DNA from: Candidatus Wukongarchaeum yapensis
GTDB taxonomy: Archaea > Asgardarchaeota > Wukongarchaeia > Wukongarchaeales > Wukongarchaeaceae
DNA length: 5,741 bases
Direction of reading: 5' to 3'
NCBI GenBank assembly: GCA_016840425.1
Contig: JAEOSI010000153.1
Span: forward strand, 1-5,741
The position numbers and the translations under genes were made by a program. Every line of letters starts with the position of its first letter. Position 1 is the first letter of the stretch. The notes beneath the pieces were generated by a model. The model did no database searches and was not told where the DNA came from. It saw only the letters and a program-made list of their open reading frames with translations. Shown piece after piece: positions 1-5,708 of the stretch.

Positions 1-578
1 TCTTGTATTTTCAACGCTTTTTGATAATGTTCTAAGGCTTCCCGAAACCTACCCCAAGCATAATACACTTCCCCGATGTTGTTAAGGGTTGTACCTTCTC
101 CTGCCCTGTCTCCTATCTCCTGGCGTATTTTAAGAGATTTTTGATGATATTCTAAGGCTTCCTGATACCTACCCAAAGCACGATACACTAACCCGATGTT
201 GTTAAGGGTTGTACCTTCTCCTGCCCTGTCTCCTATCTCTTCAAATATTTTAAGAGATTTTTGATAATGTTCTAAGGCTTCCTGATACCTGCCCCAAACA
301 CGATATACTAATCCTATGTTGTTAATGCTCGCGGCTTCTCCTTCCCTGCTTCCTATCTCCTCAGATATTTTAAGAGATTTTTGATAATGTTCTAAGGCTT
401 CTTGAAACCTGCCCAAAGCACGATACACTAACCCGATGTTGTTAAGTATGGCGCTAGCATCATCTTTGCTCTCAATTTTAAGAAAAATCTCAACAGATTT
501 TAACCAGAGTTTTATCGCAGTATCAAAATCATAAACATTTAAGGCCTTTTGACCTGCTGCATATAGATCCATTGCTTC
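1..578 (-). repeat. Intragenic tandem repeat with 120-bp (40-aa) period: degenerate unit R0 459-578, R1 339-458, R2 219-338, R3 99-218, partial R4 <1-98
   Basis: Direct alignment at period 120 gives 103/120 identity for 1-120 vs 121-240 and 98/120 for 121-240 vs 241-360. There is a 48-bp exact match between 72-119 and 192-239. No indels occur and the frame is preserved. Confidence 0.97.
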
Positions 579-590
579 CTCATAAGACAC
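1..590 (-). CDS. Tetratricopeptide-repeat protein with 40-aa TPR-like units; 5' part only, 3' end beyond window position 1
   Basis: Hand translation of the minus strand gives an open frame of 196 codons from GTG (588-590) to the window edge, with an in-frame upstream TAA at 606-608. An SD-like GGGAGTG (598-604) lies 7 nt before the GTG; an alternative ATG is at 570-572. Protein: (M)SYEEAMDLYAAGQKALNVYDFDTAIKLWLKSVEIFLKIESKDD ASAILNNIGLVYRALGRFQEALEHYQKSLKISEEIGSREG EAASINNIGLVYRVWGRYQEALEHYQKSLKIFEEIGDRAG EGTTLNNIGLVYRALGRYQEALEYHQKSLKIRQEIGDRAG EGTTLNNIGEVYYAWGRFREALEHYQKALKIQ... It matches the TPR consensus G8/Y11/G15/Y17/A20/Y24/A27. No signal peptide is visible. Confidence 0.93.
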   Translation of the reverse strand, partial: MSYEEAMDLYAAGQKALNVYDFDTAIKLWLKSVEIFLKIESKDDASAILNNIGLVYRALGRFQEALEHYQKSLKISEEIGSREGEAASINNIGLVYRVWGRYQEALEHYQKSLKIFEEIGDRAGEGTTLNNIGLVYRALGRYQEALEYHQKSLKIRQEIGDRAGEGTTLNNIGEVYYAWGRFREALEHYQKALKIQ

Positions 591-597
591 GCTTAAA

Positions 598-604
598 CAC
601 TCCC
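598..604 (-). promoter_or_regulatory. Putative ribosome-binding site for the TPR gene
   Basis: GGGAGTG on the minus strand, 7 nt upstream of GTG 590. This is the same spacing as the tatA SD. Confidence 0.55.
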
Positions 605-650
605 ATTAGTGAAGGAAAAGACTTTATGAAAGACGGGTTGACAAAAAGTT

Positions 651-670
651 CTTTAAAAAATTACTAATCT
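651..670 (-). promoter_or_regulatory. Possible archaeal TATA-like element upstream of the TPR gene (could instead be a U-tract terminator of folD)
   Basis: The minus strand reads agattagtaaTTTTTTAAAG about 60-70 nt upstream of GTG 590. The match is weak and the region is AT-rich. Confidence 0.2.
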
Positions 671-789
671 TTCATTTCTTATTTTGAAATCCTTCCTTTT
701 TTACTTTTGGTTTATTTCATGTTTTTCTTTGTTTTCGGTTCATGTTGATTAATTTATAAAGTAGGTTTTGAAAATGTTTTGCTGATTTT

Positions 790-1635
790 TTAGGGAGTGA
801 TGTTTTTTGCCGCTATGAGGGTATTTTCTAGGAGCATTGCTACGGTCATCGGGCCTACTCCGCCAGGTACTGGAGTGATGTATGATGCTTTGTTTTTTAC
901 GTTTTCAAAATCTACGTCGCCGTAGAGTTTTCCTTCTATCCTGTTTATGCCCACATCTATTACGACTGCATTTTCTTTGATCATCTCTTTTGTAACTGTG
1001 AAGGAGGGACGTCTTCCCACAGCGGTTACGAGAATGTCTGCTTTTTTTGTTTCTTCTTCTAAGTTTTTTGTTTTTGAGTGACAGGTTGTTACCGTTGCGT
1101 CAGCGTTTATCATCATAGCGTATAAGGGGCGACCTACGAGCTTACTCCGGTTTATTATTACCACGTTTTTTCCAGCGACGCCTATTTGATAGTGGTCAAG
1201 GAGATTCATAATGCCTTTTGGCGTACAGGGAACAAGGAGAGAAGGGTTACCTTGGAAAAGCTTTCCGAGATTTACGGGGTGCAAGCCATCTACGTCTTTT
1301 TCGGGGGATATTTTTTCGATGACGATGTTTTCACTTATTTGATTTGGGAGGGGCATTTGTACTAGGATACCGTGAGTGTTTTCGTCATTGTTTAGCTTGT
1401 CTATGAGGTTTAACAACTCTTCTTGTTTCGTTTCTTCGGGAAGTCTATACGTTTTTGAGAGTATGCCTACTTCACTGCAAGCTCTTTCTTTTATTCCAAC
1501 ATAAATTTTAGAACCAGGATCTTCGCCTACGAGTACCGCGGCTAAACATGGTTTTTTCTCCATCTTTTCAATCTCTTCTTTAAAAGAAAGCCTGATCTTT
1601 TCCGCCAGGCCTCTACCGTCCAAAATTTCCGCCAT
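790..1635 (-). CDS. folD: Bifunctional 5,10-methylenetetrahydrofolate dehydrogenase/cyclohydrolase (FolD), 281 aa
   Basis: Family motifs are present in order: YxxxK (YVGIK), GILVQMPLP, KDVDGLHP, PCTPKG, NRSKLVGRP (GRSxxVGxP-type NAD(P) site), CHS, ADIL, VIDVGINR, GDVDF and TPVPGGVGPMTVAMLLENT. SD-like GGGGA at 1642-1646. Confidence 0.97.
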   Translation of the reverse strand: MAEILDGRGLAEKIRLSFKEEIEKMEKKPCLAAVLVGEDPGSKIYVGIKERACSEVGILSKTYRLPEETKQEELLNLIDKLNNDENTHGILVQMPLPNQISENIVIEKISPEKDVDGLHPVNLGKLFQGNPSLLVPCTPKGIMNLLDHYQIGVAGKNVVIINRSKLVGRPLYAMMINADATVTTCHSKTKNLEEETKKADILVTAVGRRPSFTVTKEMIKENAVVIDVGINRIEGKLYGDVDFENVKNKASYITPVPGGVGPMTVAMLLENTLIAAKNITP

Positions 1636-1654
1636 AACAATTCCCCAACGCTTT

Positions 1655-2389
1655 TTATAAGAGGGATTTTAACGGTTTCCCTGCCTTCTCCCACTCCTCC
1701 TCCTGAAAAACTACGTATTTTTCCTGCCTCTTATCCCATTCTTTTTCCCACTCAACCCACTCTTCCCCAGTTAAAACCATCTTTACCTTCCTATCACCAG
1801 GCTCCGGAGGCTCAACTATTTTATCAGCGATCATTTGAACAGCCCTAGGGAACATCCTATGCTCATAAACCAAAATTCTATCAGCGAGAGTTTCAGCCGT
1901 ATCAGCCCACTTTACCCCCACAACCTCTTGAACTATTATCGGTCCAACATCCACACCCTCCGTAACATAATGGATCGTGCAACCAGAGAATCTCACGCCA
2001 TACTTCCACGCTTGCTCCTGTGCATTAAGACCCGGAAAAGCAGGAAGAATAGAAGGATGAATGTTTATAGACCTCCATTTATAATGCCTAATAAAAAGAG
2101 GAGTCAGTATCCGGTCAAACCCTGCTAAAACCACCAATTCAACACCATATTTCTCCATCTCGTCAATGGCTTTTCTCTCAAAATCTTCACGATTAGCCTT
2201 ATCATAAGGAAAAACAACACTGTCTACCCCATAATCCTTTGCAAGCTCCAAAACCTTAGCCTTTTCATTATTACTTACCACAATCCTTAAGTCAACATCT
2301 TTTAACACTTTAAGCCTTACATGATCCGCTATAGCCTTAAAATTCGAGCCACGCCCTGACGCTAAAAAACCTACATTCATTTTCCCCAC
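1655..2389 (-). CDS. purN: Phosphoribosylglycinamide (GAR) formyltransferase, PurN family, 244 aa with C-terminal extension
   Basis: Phosphate-binding loop ASGRGSN, LAGFDRIL, catalytic N109-I-H111 in NIHPSILP, GCTIHYV, D147 in VDVGPII, and E176-H. There is no N-terminal ACT domain, so it is not PurU. GTG start at 2389 with GAGG 7 nt upstream; an alternative ATG is at 2380. The gene lies 19 bp upstream of folD, which supplies 10-formyl-THF. Confidence 0.88.
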   Translation of the reverse strand: MGKMNVGFLASGRGSNFKAIADHVRLKVLKDVDLRIVVSNNEKAKVLELAKDYGVDSVVFPYDKANREDFERKAIDEMEKYGVELVVLAGFDRILTPLFIRHYKWRSINIHPSILPAFPGLNAQEQAWKYGVRFSGCTIHYVTEGVDVGPIIVQEVVGVKWADTAETLADRILVYEHRMFPRAVQMIADKIVEPPEPGDRKVKMVLTGEEWVEWEKEWDKRQEKYVVFQEEEWEKAGKPLKSLL

Positions 2390-2410
2390 AATCCTTCCTC
2401 TAAATCCCTA

Positions 2411-2433
2411 CTATAATAGAATTTTTATCGATT
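2411..2433 (-). promoter_or_regulatory. Possible internal BRE/TATA promoter for purN-folD
   Basis: The minus strand reads cgataaaaattc-TATTATAG, ending 21 nt before GTG 2389. This is the right distance for a near-leaderless archaeal transcript, but the consensus match is imperfect. Confidence 0.3.
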
Positions 2434-3333
2434 TTAGGTCGCGGTCACTCCTTTTTCTCTTTTTCCTCGCGATTTCACAGCGTGCAACGCTTCTTTTACA
2501 AGAATTTTTTTAGCTAATTCTTTTGTTTTCCTCAAGCTTTCTTTCCTTTCTATACGTTTCGCGATTGAAATAGTTGCGTAATATTCGATTATCATGGGTA
2601 CTAATAATATCATCATAGTTATCCCCGAAGGATCTGGAGTCACCACCGCAGTCACTACCGCGAGAACAAAAATAAACTCACGAGACCGCTTTCTTAAATC
2701 ATCCGTAGTGAAAACACCCGCCAACACAAGCATCGTCAAAAAAACAGGAAAAGTAAAAGCCAACCCTATCCCTATAACCGCTATAAAAAGAAAAGTCAGA
2801 AAACTATCCAAAGTGTAAATGGGCATAACATCAGCATAATAAACCAAATCGATAAGAACACCATAAGTTATAGGCAAAATCACAACAAAAGCAATAAAAG
2901 CACCCGCATAAAAAAGCAAACAAAAAGAAACTACAAACCACTTAAAATACGCCTTCTCCTCCTCAAACAAAGCCCTCTCAACAAAAAGATAAATCTCCCT
3001 CGCAATAAAAGGAACAACAGTCAAAATACCGAAAATAAGACTCACCGCAACATAAGCCCAAAAAATCGCCGAAAAATCCGTCACATAAAGATCCAACCTA
3101 TGAGACAACATATAACCCTTTAACTCTTTAATCAAACGAACACACATAGGCTCATAATCTTTAAGAGACAGCCTACCATCAAGAAAACTCCCCGGCGCAA
3201 AAGCCCAAAAAGCACTAGCTAAAAGAATAGCCGCAAAAATCCTCCTAAGACGCCTCACAAGCTCCTGTAAATGGCTTACCAACTCCTCCTCATAATCACC
3301 AGGCGGGATCCCAAAACCATCACTACTCTTCAA
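2434..3333 (-). CDS. tatC: Twin-arginine translocase subunit TatC, 299 aa, divergent
   Basis: HLQELVRRL (HLxELRxRL-like), F-V-E-R-A-L-F-E-E-E (FxxPxLxxxE-like), FxFP and TPDP motifs; about six hydrophobic segments; adjacent to tatA. TTG start at 3333 has an in-frame TAG at 3337-3339 just upstream and GGTGGGG at 3344-3350. Confidence 0.93.
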   Translation of the reverse strand: MKSSDGFGIPPGDYEEELVSHLQELVRRLRRIFAAILLASAFWAFAPGSFLDGRLSLKDYEPMCVRLIKELKGYMLSHRLDLYVTDFSAIFWAYVAVSLIFGILTVVPFIAREIYLFVERALFEEEKAYFKWFVVSFCLLFYAGAFIAFVVILPITYGVLIDLVYYADVMPIYTLDSFLTFLFIAVIGIGLAFTFPVFLTMLVLAGVFTTDDLRKRSREFIFVLAVVTAVVTPDPSGITMMILLVPMIIEYYATISIAKRIERKESLRKTKELAKKILVKEALHAVKSRGKREKGVTAT

Positions 3334-3398
3334 AAACTACAAGCCCCACCACAAACCAAAAAAATAAAACCCCTGAAACTTCTCAAAAATATTTCTAC

Positions 3399-3674
3399 CT
3401 ATTCCTTCGACTCTAAAATCTCTTTCGCTATCTCCTCCACCGTTTTCCCTTCAGTCTTAATACCAAGCTTCTTAGCAGCCTCAATTAAAGCAACTTCTTC
3501 CGTTACCTCTTTTGAACCACTCTCTCGACCACCAGGCCTTTCCTTTCGACCAGCCTCATACTCAGACTGAGCCTCTCCTACACTTCTCGCCAACCGAGGA
3601 AGCCTCGACGCACCAAACAACAACAAAAATATGAAGAGTATAATTAAGAGCTCTGTAGCGCCCACAGTAGTCAT
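3399..3674 (-). CDS. tatA: Twin-arginine translocase TatA/TatE family subunit, 91 aa; start corrected from 3734
   Basis: MTTVGATELLIILFIFLLLFGASRLPRLARSVGEA gives one TM helix, an FG hinge and an amphipathic helix. A strong GGAGGT SD (3682-3687) lies 7 nt upstream of ATG 3674. The extra 20 aa in the ORF track do not resemble TatA. Confidence 0.92.
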   Translation of the reverse strand: MTTVGATELLIILFIFLLLFGASRLPRLARSVGEAQSEYEAGRKERPGGRESGSKEVTEEVALIEAAKKLGIKTEGKTVEEIAKEILESKE

Positions 3675-3681
3675 ACAAAAA

Positions 3682-3687
3682 ACCTCC
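3682..3687 (-). promoter_or_regulatory. Shine-Dalgarno site of tatA
   Basis: Perfect GGAGGT 7 nt before the ATG. Confidence 0.8.
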
Positions 3688-3837
3688 AAAACACACAAAA
3701 ATTTCCTGAAAAAACTATCTACGAATTTAACCAATAATCAAAACAAAAAGAATAATACCGCATTAAAAACTCTTCCGTTTACGCTAAAAAATGATGAACA
3801 ATTAGGAAAAAAAGGGAACGTCGTTAAAAATCTCAGC

Positions 3838-3910
3838 ATAAAAAAACAAAAATAAAAGCGCCTAAAAAAGCGTAAAAAATGAATAAAAAAAAGGGATAAA
3901 AACCGGTTTT
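3838..3910 (-). terminator. Probable archaeal U-tract terminator region downstream of atpA
   Basis: After the atpA stop the transcript reads AACUAAAACCGGUUUUUAUCCCUUUUUUUUAUUCAUUUUUUACGCUUUUUUAGG. Multiple oligo-U tracts are the established archaeal termination signal. Confidence 0.55.
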
Positions 3911-3914
3911 AGTT

Positions 3915-5708
3915 TTATACAATTTCTTCGACGGCGAACTGGGAAGATTTTAAAGCTTCAATGTCCTTCAACACTTGGTTGTACTTATCTTCGAACTCTT
4001 GTTCCTGGAACCATTTCAGGTTAGCTATTACGTCAAAAGCATCCAGTTCTAACATATCTTTGACTAAAATACCCGCATCGAGCAATTCCTTCATCTTCTC
4101 ATACAGCAAAATAATAGCCCTTAACATCTTATACTGTTTATCCATGGAGCAGAAACTGTCATCCGAATAAGCGCTCTGCTGTAAATAATCTTCCCGGATC
4201 ATCCTAGCAGCTTCAAGGATAACCCTTTCAGATTCAGGTAAAGCATCAGGACCAACCAGTTGAACGATTTCCATAAGCTCTTTTTCCTTCTGCAACAACG
4301 ACATAGCCTCAGTAACCAAATCCGGAAATTCTGGAGAAACATTCTCCCTATACCAATCTCTTAGGCTACCTCCATAAAGAGTATATGATGTCAACCAGTC
4401 AATCGCTGGGAAGTGTCTTTGCTCCGCTAATCTCTTGCTTAACGCCCAAAATACCCGGACTACTCGAAGAGTGTTTTGGGTTACAGGTTCTGAGAAGTCG
4501 CCTCCAGGCGGGCTAACTGCGCCAACCGCGGAAACAGAACCTATACGTTCCTCTGAGCCTATACACACCACTCTGCCCGTCCTTTCGTAAAAGGCCGCCA
4601 ATCTGGAGCCTAAATACGCTGGATAGCCCTCCTCCCCGGGCATTTCTTCTAATCGTCCTGAAATCTCTCGAAGAGCTTCGGCCCACCGTGAAGTTGAGTC
4701 AGCCATTAGGGCGACATCATAGCCCATATCTCTGTAGTATTCTGCTATTGTGACGCCTGTGTAGATGGAGGCTTCTCGAGCGGCTACGGGCATGTTTGAG
4801 GTGTTGGCTATTAGGGAGCATCTTTCCATTAAAGCTTTGCCTGTGTATGGGTCGATTAGCTTGGGGAATTCTTCAAGAACTTCAGTCATTTCGTTTCCAC
4901 GTTCACCGCAGCCGATGTAGACGATTACTTTTGCATCAGACCATTTTGCGAGCTGATGTTGGGACACGGTCTTTCCTGTACCAAAGCCGCCGGGTATTGC
5001 GCCGGTTCCTCCTTTGGCGATGGGGAAGAAGGTGTCGTAAATTCTTTGACCTGTTAGTAGAGGTACTTCTGAGCCGAGTTTTCTCTTATAGGGTCTGTAT
5101 TCTCGGACTGGCCAATCTTGTTTTAATTGAATCGTATGTTCTGCACCGCTGGGGGTTTTTATAACCGCGATCTCCTCATCAATAGTATATTCTCCGTCAC
5201 CTGCAAGGGAGGTAAGCTCTCCTGAAAGTCTTGGAGGCACCATTACTCTATTCTCAATAACTAAAGACTCTTTCACTATTCCTAAAATGTCTCCTCCGAC
5301 AAGCTTGTCTCCTTCTTTAGCTTTTGGAACGAAATGCCACTTTTTATCATGGTTAAGGGCTGTAGCTATAACACCACGTGCAATGAAATCCCCGGTCTTT
5401 TCTTTAATTTCTGGTAGAGGCCTAGCAATTCCATCGTAAATCGATGTAATTAAACCTGGACCCAGCTCGATGCTTAAGGGAGCACCTGTAGCTGTCACAG
5501 GCTCTCCAGGTACTAATCCAGCTGTCTCCTCATAACACTGTGAGATAATGTGATCTCCGAATACACGGATTACTTCTCCTATTAGTCCTTCTTTGCCGAT
5601 TCTGGTGACTTCATACATTTTTGTTCCGAACATTTTTTTTGCTTCAACCACGGGACCGCTGATCCTCGTGATTTCGCCTATGATTCCGCCCTTTTTTTCT
5701 GAAGACAT
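3915..5708 (-). CDS. atpA: A/V-type ATP synthase catalytic subunit A, 597 aa, intein-free
   Basis: Walker [20 protein letters not shown], Walker B region [50 protein letters not shown] and [12 protein letters not shown]. The A-subunit-specific non-homologous region is present. SD-like GGGGT at 5717-5721, 8 nt upstream. The symbol follows archaeal usage (also ntpA). Confidence 0.97.

What the first reader, a model, noticed from the sequence alone, without database searches (positions are those of the whole stretch)
841..5030. Kilobase-scale keto/amino (G+T vs A+C) wobble domains that flip inside co-directional genes
Seen (100 codons each, third-position A+C on the coding strand): atpA 4731-5030 = 80; atpA 4056-4355 = 27; tatC 2701-3000 = 9; purN 2090-2389 = 28; folD 841-1140 = 76. 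All genes are on one strand, and the switches fall within genes (atpA about 4400-4730; folD about 1450-1600). Gene-level codon bias, gene orientation or horizontal transfer of whole genes therefore do not explain it. Amino-acid content barely constrains this axis because both T/C and G/A codon pairs offer one keto and one amino choice. Established: G+T vs A+C skew normally marks leading vs lagging strand and flips only at origins and termini. Inference: a position-dependent strand-asymmetric process with domains of about 1-3 kb. Candidates are dispersed or recombination-driven replication starts, chromatin-linked mutation or repair, or selection for long-range RNA/DNA complementarity. I do not know of an explanation for this scale, but cannot exclude that one is published.
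Basis: partly seen in the sequence, partly recalled or inferred. Interest (0 to 1): 0.7.

Follow-up and report, generated by a model that had tools for sequence, protein, structure and literature searches.

The report
Patchy one-strand G/T versus A/C skew
In this uncultured Asgard archaeon the silent codon positions switch every few hundred to few thousand bases between almost only G/T and almost only A/C on one DNA strand. This is a real, genome-wide footprint of a strand-specific DNA-level process that resets at gene-cluster borders and that I found described only for repeated polyketide-synthase genes.

Summary
In detail: all five counts reproduce exactly. It is far beyond chance. The spread of third-position G+T per 50 codons is 2.1 times a synonymous-codon null genome-wide.

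It is a DNA-strand property, not a codon property.
- Neighbouring genes correlate at r = +0.5 on the same strand and -0.5 on opposite strands.
- Spacers follow their flanks.
- All 16 codon boxes and amino-acid usage shift together.

There are three layers: a regional bias over 40 kb or more, sharp-edged patches of 0.3-2.4 kb, and an A/C-to-G/T jump at borders between genes (64 up, 2 down). That jump is strongest between convergent genes and smallest inside tight operons.

A genus-mate shows the same pattern, and it recurs patchily among Asgard families. A 460-kb Asgard control shows none. Patch borders have moved between the two species by silent, directional change: C>T, A>G, A>T, with no sequence context.

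My best reading is recurrent one-strand exposure and damage anchored at transcription-unit borders; the exact mechanism is open. The closest published case is GRINS, but these regions are single copy. This scan had already noted the pattern on other pieces of this genome and in other archaea.

The parts
3..590 (-). TPR-repeat gene, cut by the contig end. Its third positions are near neutral (+ strand G+T 0.36-0.64), so it serves as an internal baseline.
591..789 (.). Spacer after the folD stop, with a T6 tract on the coding strand. The + strand third-position G+T jumps from 0.38 to 0.76 across it, a border up-step.
790..1635 (-). folD. The + strand is G/T-rich, so the coding strand is A/C-rich at 0.60-0.84. 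The value falls to 0.48 at the gene's 5' end.
1636..1654 (.). 19-bp folD|purN junction, probably inside one operon. There is no jump here (0.48 to 0.48); the decline simply continues.
1655..2389 (-). purN. The + strand is A/C-rich (G+T 0.12-0.40) and uniform within the gene.
2390..2433 (.). purN|tatC spacer. Border up-step from 0.30 to 0.64.
2434..2583 (-). 3' tail of tatC, Lys/Glu-rich. The coding strand is A/C-rich (0.64), which matches the genome-wide gene-end effect.
2584..2659 (.). Sharp step inside tatC, with + strand G+T falling from 0.64 to 0.16. At the strictest setting (70-codon flanks) it is one of only 3 sharp down-steps in the genome, against 38 up-steps. Among steps inside genes, however, down and up are about equally common.
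2604..3500 (.). Strong patch over the tatC body and the 3' part of tatA. Third positions are 84-100% G/T on the coding (-) strand. It is one of 273 such patches in the genome.
3735..3914 (.). Spacer after the atpA stop, with a cluster of oligo-T tracts on the coding strand that looks like an archaeal terminator. Border up-step from 0.32 to 0.60.
3915..5708 (-). atpA, with internal flips. + strand G+T is 0.56-0.60 at 3915-4064, 0.16-0.36 at 4065-4364, about 0.5 at 4365-4739, 0.72-0.92 at 4740-5114, about 0.5 at 5115-5564 and 0.65-0.84 at 5565-5708.

Best explanation
The window shows a few 'teeth' of a pattern that runs through the whole genome of this Asgard genus. A DNA-level, strand-asymmetric pressure replaces the amino bases A and C by the keto bases G and T on one strand. 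Purifying selection holds the proteins, so silent sites run towards saturation, up to about 97% G/T or A/C. Which strand is hit changes along the chromosome in three layers. (a) A regional preference holds over tens of kilobases. (b) Patches of 0.3-2.4 kb have sharp edges of either polarity. (c) At borders between transcription units, the strand that runs 5'->3' away from the border into the unit is always the one enriched in G/T. As a result, coding strands are G/T-rich near gene starts and A/C-rich near gene ends. Inferred mechanism: the strand hit is the one repeatedly left single-stranded. Candidates are the displaced strand of bubbles or R-loops, or the lagging-strand template of forks, that start or stall at unit borders. 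Damage on that strand cannot be repaired from a partner. Such damage would be deamination of C and A, and base loss followed by insertion of A. Shown here: the DNA-level nature, the polarity, the anchoring at borders, the substitution spectrum and the fact that patch borders move. Inferred only: single-strandedness and which cellular process causes it.
For: DNA-level. Coding-strand third-position G+T of neighbouring genes correlates at +0.47 on the same strand and -0.51 on opposite strands. With high-confidence genes only the values are +0.52 and -0.49. Spacer composition follows the flanking silent sites (r = 0.51, all four orientation classes). All 16 codon boxes shift alike, and amino-acid usage shifts as well, with V, R, F, G up in G/T-rich stretches and I, K, T, Q, N up in A/C-rich ones. 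58 of the 273 patches run through genes of both orientations.
Polarity at borders. Sharp steps at gene borders are up (A/C to G/T) 64 times and down 2 times. The mean jump is +0.20 between convergent genes, +0.18 between tandem genes with spacers over 150 bp, +0.09 between divergent genes and +0.02-0.04 between tandem genes less than 30 bp apart. Metagene G+T falls from 0.56 to 0.39 along genes, and from 0.60 to 0.42 at four-fold sites. The genus-mate G001 repeats the metagene gradient, the excess of up-steps, and the size of the jumps for each type of gene border; a 460-kb Asgard control is flat.
Spectrum. On the G/T-rich strand four-fold sites are T .53, G .36, A .09, C .01. Where the two species differ in skew, changes from A/C to G/T number 356 against 73 the other way. 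Per eligible base, C>T is .47, A>G .26, A>T .15 and C>G .07. G>T is also about twofold up, and C>T shows no 5' or 3' context.
In situ and ongoing. In the 34 windows whose skew differs by more than 0.45 between species, silent divergence is 0.37 against 0.17 in the most stable windows. Divergence at codon positions 1+2 is 0.066 against 0.059.
Against: In stable, strongly skewed windows silent divergence is lower, not higher (0.17-0.18 against 0.24). The inferred rates, about 3-5x up in the forward direction and 3-5x down in reverse, fit a selection-like or conversion-like force with S about 2-3 as well as a shift of exposure between the strands. A>T and C>G are not deamination products and need a second kind of damage. 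Mean coding-strand G+T is 0.49 and the EF-1alpha gene is unskewed, so ordinary sense transcription is not the driver. The wings at borders did not scale with the regional background as a simple fork-entry model predicts (the test is weakened by a noisy background estimate). No motif, no clear composition signal beyond the AT-rich spacers themselves, and no gene-content correlate was found. Nothing here measures single-strandedness.
Confidence: 0.5

Rival explanations
1. Error-prone resynthesis. Repeated repair or patch synthesis starts at fixed places and makes G.T-type mispairs or copies tautomeric bases. The newly made strand, which also runs 5'->3' away from its start, would then gain G and T. 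This is the idea offered for GRINS.
For: The polarity is the same as observed. The change follows base class rather than one chemistry, and transversions take part. GRINS show the same correlated GC and TA skews, abrupt edges and amino-acid shifts (PMC8256042). Class-preserving transversions are 1.2-1.6x higher in skewed stretches.
Against: No start motif was found. Nothing identifies the polymerase. Steps inside genes have no polarity (26 up, 36 down). The near-complete loss of C (1%) is the classic sign of deamination.
Confidence: 0.15
2. Selection or biased gene conversion on strand composition. One example would be T-tracts on the antisense strand near gene ends that stop invading antisense or read-through transcripts. 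Another would be avoidance of self-pairing, since a strand made only of G/T or only of A/C cannot form Watson-Crick pairs with itself.
For: The equilibrium rate pattern fits S about 2-3, and silent divergence is reduced in saturated patches. All four A/C-to-G/T changes rise together. The antisense strand of folD carries nine T6 tracts. The jumps sit at gene and operon borders.
Against: The skew continues through genes of opposite orientation and through spacers, so it is not a property of single transcripts. G>T, which keeps the base class, is also raised. Related Asgard genomes with the same genes do without it. A regional bias over 40 kb has no obvious selective reading.
Confidence: 0.12
3. 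Many replication start sites. Forks or the replicative helicase start at unit borders, most often between convergent genes, as when loaded MCM is pushed by RNA polymerase in yeast. The skew would then be a map of fork direction.
For: The polarity equals that of bacterial origins. The order convergent > tandem > divergent, with almost no jump inside operons, is what pushed helicases would give. The regional bias is orientation-independent.
Against: The jumps fade within 0.3-1 kb, whereas a change in fork direction should last to the next termination zone; only about 0.03-0.05 of the step persists. Hundreds of sites per 2 Mb, each with near-deterministic polarity, would be needed. No origin-like motif was found. 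Regional skew is unrelated to gene strand.
Confidence: 0.08
4. Translational selection on wobble decoding. A/C-ending codons pair by Watson-Crick with G34/U34 tRNAs and G/T-ending codons pair by wobble, so the pattern would be a speed ramp along genes.
For: G+T at third positions falls steadily from gene start to gene end.
Against: Spacers share the skew. Opposite-strand neighbours are anticorrelated. Codon positions 1 and 2 shift too. The pattern is absent in related genomes.
Confidence: 0.02
5. Artefact or mosaic: chimeric assembly, small inversions, or import of gene pieces from relatives with the opposite skew.
For: The genome is a fragmented MAG of 277 contigs.
Against: Reading frames run intact through the flips. 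Two independent assemblies agree. Where the skew differs between species, only silent sites carry the excess divergence. Border steps are almost all of one polarity, which a mosaic would not give.
Confidence: 0.02

Closest known systems
[quoted passage not shown]
   Same: Local stretches of 0.3-1.4 kb have intense, positively correlated GC and TA skews, which is a keto/amino skew. The skew is strongest at third codon positions. Changes are abrupt and both signs occur on one strand. Gly, Val, Cys and Trp trade against Pro, Thr, His and Gln. The mechanism is unknown (compared).
   Different: GRINS are defined as duplicated regions (>80% identical copies) inside polyketide-synthase clusters and are tied to gene conversion. 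Here the regions are single copy. They lie in housekeeping genes and spacers across a whole archaeal genome. They also come with a polar jump at gene and operon borders and a regional component.
Replication-associated strand asymmetry of bacteria (G/T-rich leading strand)
   Same: G>C and T>A go together on one strand, independently of gene orientation. The polarity of the border jumps equals that at a bacterial origin. A regional component over >=40 kb exists.
   Different: The amplitude is several-fold higher and the sign changes every 0.3-3 kb. The jumps are local, with wings of 0.3-1 kb. Published surveys of archaeal skews that I read describe nothing of this kind (PMC12999951).
[quoted passage not shown]
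   Same: It lies on the same base axis and is anchored to transcription units. Gene 5' ends are G/T-rich on the coding strand.
   Different: There is no net coding-strand excess (mean 0.49). Gene 3' ends show the opposite sign, about twice as strongly. The skew runs through oppositely oriented neighbours.
Heavy/light-strand asymmetry of animal mitochondrial DNA
   Same: A and especially C are depleted on one strand at four-fold sites to a comparable degree, and the transitions involved (C>T, A>G) are deamination-type. That the depletion is of mitochondrial magnitude is from my own knowledge.
   Different: In mitochondria one polarity holds for the whole molecule and is tied to strand-displacement replication. 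Here there are hundreds of patches of both polarities on one chromosome.

Membership tests
GRINS | Region >500 bp with mean absolute GC and TA skews >0.15, the two positively correlated | tested here: met
   For 300-base windows between 2701 and 3300 the GC skew is -0.39 to -0.45 and the AT skew +0.42 to +0.52. The signs reverse together in folD and atpA. The tatC patch spans 2604-3500.
GRINS | Skew strongest at third codon positions, with matching amino-acid shifts | tested here: met
   The slopes of codon positions 1 and 2 on position 3 are 0.21 and 0.15. V, G, C, W go up in G/T-rich stretches and T, Q, H, P go up in A/C-rich ones.
GRINS | Duplicated: >80% DNA identity to another region of the same cluster | tested here: not met
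   Window 600-5741 matches only itself in the genome. The only repeat in the window is the TPR array.
Replication-associated strand skew | Sign constant along a replichore, flipping only at origin and terminus | tested here: not met
   There are 273 strong patches of both signs, with a median length of 432 bp. The autocorrelation decays over 0.5-2 kb. Only a weaker regional component keeps its sign over 40 kb.
Replication-associated strand skew | Independent of gene orientation, with G>C going together with T>A | tested here: met
Transcription-associated asymmetry | Net G+T excess on the coding (non-template) strand of transcribed DNA | tested here: not met
   Mean coding-strand third-position G+T is 0.49. 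The last decile of genes is at 0.39.
Transcription-associated asymmetry | Strength rises with expression | tested here: inconclusive
   This rests on anecdote only. EF-1alpha is near 0.5 throughout and EF-2 shows the ordinary decline. The ribosomal L2 gene cluster is not in the assembly.
Enzymatic deaminase clusters (APOBEC/AID type) | Preference for a sequence context around the deaminated C | tested here: not met
   C>T conversion is 0.50-0.57 for every 5' and 3' neighbour. All codon boxes shift alike.
Mitochondrial-type strand asymmetry | Skew grows with the time a site spends single-stranded during replication | not testable with these tools
   This needs replication or single-strand mapping in cells.

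The most novel reading that the evidence does not exclude
The jumps mark places where the replicative helicase or forks start in an Asgard archaeon: at the ends of transcription units, above all between convergent genes. That is where RNA polymerase pushes loaded MCM in yeast. Dispersed, transcription-shaped replication initiation would then predate eukaryotes.
Probability: 0.07. Interest if true: 0.95.

Novelty: new variant of a known kind. Interest (0 to 1): 0.68.

Why it matters
If the cause is mutational, these genomes carry a readable, base-resolution record of which strand is exposed where. That is a natural map of transcription-unit borders and of DNA transactions in organisms that mostly cannot be grown, including close relatives of the eukaryotic ancestor.

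It also has practical consequences.
- Codon usage, amino-acid composition and silent divergence in these lineages depend strongly on position, which can mislead codon-based expression estimates, tests for transferred genes, dN/dS and phylogenies.
- A/C-only strands lack stop codons, so they produce long false antisense ORFs.
- It would widen the unexplained GRINS phenomenon from repeated bacterial gene modules to single-copy DNA of whole archaeal genomes.

Tried and rejected
- **GGCC lead.** An earlier scan note tied the switches to GGCC. GGCC lies within 30 bp of 3 of 56 up-steps, against 5.1% of random sites. No other 4-6-mer stands out beyond what the flanking composition explains.
- **Loss of deamination repair.** UDG and endonuclease V are present in G000 and G001, while the unskewed control G003 lacks UDG.
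- **NucS/EndoMS and RNase H1.** NucS is present in all skewed genomes and in many unskewed ones. RNase H1 was not found in most skewed genomes, nor in many unskewed ones. Neither gives a clean correlate.
- **Conserved switch points in atpA orthologues.** Profiles of 11 other Asgard atpA genes do not match G000. One of them (G027) has its own step elsewhere.
- **Orthologues of the window's genes in the genus-mate.** None was found by DNA or protein search; that genome is 87% complete. I used other syntenic DNA instead.
- **Link between regional skew and gene strand.** None was found.
- **Fork-entry prediction.** The wing with the sign of the background should be the larger; this was not seen, though the test is weak.
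- **Composition at steps inside genes.** They are only slightly richer in G+C.
- **Ribosomal-protein cluster as an expression proxy.** The L2 gene is not in the assembly.
- **Literature.** Seven full-text searches found no description of kilobase-scale keto/amino patchworks in archaea.
Full report
**What is in the window.** The window is a complete 5741-base contig (C158) of a 2.16-Mb MAG with 277 contigs and 38% G+C. All six ORFs are on the - strand: a TPR protein, FolD, PurN, TatC, TatA and the A subunit of an A-type ATPase. Earlier notes of this scan call the organism a Hodarchaeales-type Asgard archaeon. My only evidence on this is that the nearest atpA genes come from Asgard and other archaeal MAGs at 60-65% identity.

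- In tatC, 48 of 50 consecutive third positions are G or T (P about 4e-13).
- Heterogeneity inside atpA and tatC exceeds every one of 2000 within-gene synonymous shuffles. In folD it is marginal (p = 0.085).
- Genome-wide, the SD of third-position G+T per 50 codons is 0.157, against 0.074 for synonymous resampling.
- An independent sequencing run has the same DNA at 99.9% identity. A second species of the genus, G001 (88% identical and syntenic), has the same local skew (r = 0.88).

**It is a property of the DNA strand.**
- Coding-strand G+T of adjacent genes correlates at +0.47 when they share a strand and -0.51 when they do not. With high-confidence genes only, the values are +0.52 and -0.49.
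- Spacer composition follows the flanking silent sites in all four orientation classes (r = 0.51).
- All 16 codon boxes shift in parallel. Codon positions 1 and 2 follow, with V, R, F, G gaining in G/T-rich stretches and I, K, T, Q, N in A/C-rich ones.
- These results exclude tRNA or wobble-based selection and gene-wise codon bias.

**Anatomy: three layers.**
- *Regional.* G001 contigs keep one sign for 40 kb. Windows correlate with background more than 2 kb away (r = 0.42), and about 80% of extreme windows share its sign.
- *Patches.* There are 273 stretches of at least 80 codons at |skew| >= 0.65. They cover 7.3% of the genome, with a median of 432 bp and a maximum of 2.4 kb. 58 of them cross genes of both orientations. 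Runs of about 90 pure third positions occur. The tatC patch (2604-3500) is one of them.
- *Borders.* Sharp steps are mostly A/C to G/T when read 5'->3' on either strand: 38 against 3 in G000, 12 against 0 in G001 and none in 460 kb of a control Asgard genome. This asymmetry belongs wholly to gene borders (64 up, 2 down). Steps inside genes go either way (26 up, 36 down).
  - The mean jump is 0.20 at convergent pairs, 0.18 at tandem pairs with long spacers, 0.09 at divergent pairs and 0.02-0.04 at tandem pairs less than 30 bp apart. The spacer dependence is weaker in G001.
  - This fits transcription-unit borders, with a 3'-end effect about twice the 5'-end effect.
  - Averaged over genes, coding-strand G+T falls from 0.56 to 0.39, also at four-fold sites and in every gene-length class. 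The mean stays at 0.49.
  - The average border effect fades within about 300 bp, and the strongest ones within 0.5-1 kb.

**The window re-read.** Read on the + strand, the window shows up-steps at the spacers 590|790, 2389|2434 and 3734|3915. The last of these carries a cluster of oligo-T tracts after the atpA stop. There is no step at the 19-bp folD|purN junction. Inside genes there is one sharp down-step in tatC and several flips in atpA.

**Nature of the change.**
- On the G/T-rich strand, four-fold sites are T .53, G .36, A .09, C .01.
- In saturated stretches silent divergence between the two species is lower (0.17-0.18 against 0.24). The inferred rates are 3-5x up for C>T and A>G and 3-5x down for the reverse changes. 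That fits a shift of exposure between the strands, and it fits a selection-like force equally well.
- Patch borders are not fixed. In 34 of 2201 aligned windows the skew differs by more than 0.45. There, silent divergence is doubled (0.37 against 0.17 in the most stable windows) while divergence at positions 1+2 barely rises (0.066 against 0.059). The clearest case is C96:1267-3800. This is in-situ, directional, ongoing change, not import of foreign DNA.
- In such neighbourhoods A/C-to-G/T changes outnumber the reverse 356 to 73. Per eligible base, C>T is .47, A>G .26, A>T .15 and C>G .07. G>T is also about twofold up, and C>T shows no neighbour preference.
- This spectrum looks like unrepaired damage on one strand, with deamination plus base loss. 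It does not look like a sequence-specific deaminase.

**Distribution.** The ratio of observed to null SD is 2.1 in G000 and G001, 2.3 in G028, 1.9 in G027, 1.85 in G012 and 1.6 in G022. It is 0.9-1.15 in most other Asgard genomes sampled, and only 1.35 in G018, a genus-mate of G028. UDG, endonuclease V and NucS are present in the skewed genomes. RNase H1 is not found in most of them, nor in many unskewed ones. No motif marks the steps, and the GGCC lead from another genome fails here.

**Interpretation.**
- I commit to a strand-asymmetric mutational regime in which the strand hit is the one repeatedly single-stranded. At unit borders that is the strand running 5'->3' outward. This is the polarity of a displaced strand, or of a lagging-strand template, for anything that starts or stalls there.
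- Simple sense transcription is excluded: there is no net coding-strand bias and EF-1alpha is unskewed.
- Fixed origins are unlikely because the jumps are local.
- A fork-entry model explains the stronger 3' effect, since head-on encounters are the more severe. It did not pass the one test I could make.
- Error-prone patch synthesis and a selection-like or conversion-like force remain live rivals.

**Comparison with what is known.** The base axis and polarity are those of replication skew. The anchoring is that of transcription-associated asymmetry. The amplitude is that of mitochondrial DNA. The patch anatomy is that of GRINS (PMC8256042). The regions fail the repeat criterion that defines GRINS. 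They also fail the defining features of the replication and transcription classes. I therefore rate it a new variant of a known kind.

**Earlier notes of this scan.** The pattern had already been noted on other pieces of this genome and in other archaea. The points I did not see in the summaries shown to me are:
- the small size of the jump inside tight operons;
- the roughly additive 5' and 3' effects;
- the finding that the up-step asymmetry is purely a border effect;
- the moving patch borders;
- the raw substitution spectrum.

Noticed in passing
window 6-446: The TPR gene holds three 201-nt copies in register, 120 nt (40 codons) apart and 84-87% identical. It is a recent internal repeat array, and its silent sites are near neutral in skew.
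   Followed up: no
window 3399-5708; G000:C120:5393-6824: atpA is followed by tatA-tatC, not by atpB. The B-subunit gene lies on another contig and has its own sharp mid-gene skew step. The A and B genes are also far apart in G003 and G007, but adjacent in G002 and G008.
   Followed up: partly
window 1655-1840 (3' end of purN): PurN carries a Trp/Glu/Lys-rich tail of about 60 residues beyond the formyltransferase domain. The Pfam match covers residues 4-184 of 244.
   Followed up: no
G005, G013, G014, G025 atpA loci: In these genomes the atpA reading frames are 1096-1169 aa long and the match is split in two. This looks like an intein in the ATPase A subunit of several Asgard genomes; G000 has none.
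   Followed up: no
window 3399-3734: The tatA start is ambiguous. The longest ORF is 111 aa from a TTG codon, while the gene call on the identical Logan contig is 91 aa.
   Followed up: no
window 1835-2128, 3271-3570, 4796-5164 (+ strand): Antisense ORFs of 97-122 aa overlap the strongly skewed stretches. A strand poor in T and G has few stop codons, so such ORFs are expected by-products and a trap for gene callers.
   Followed up: partly
G000:C96:1267-3800 against G001:C19:about 17300-20000: A G/T-rich patch covers about 2.4 kb in G001 but only about 0.7 kb in G000, where the flanks are neutral or A/C-rich. Silent divergence there is 0.35-0.47, against a genome mean of 0.20.
   Followed up: partly
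G003 (complete 1.4-Mb Asgard genome): No member of the UDG family PF03167 was found, yet this genome shows no skew patches at all.
   Followed up: no
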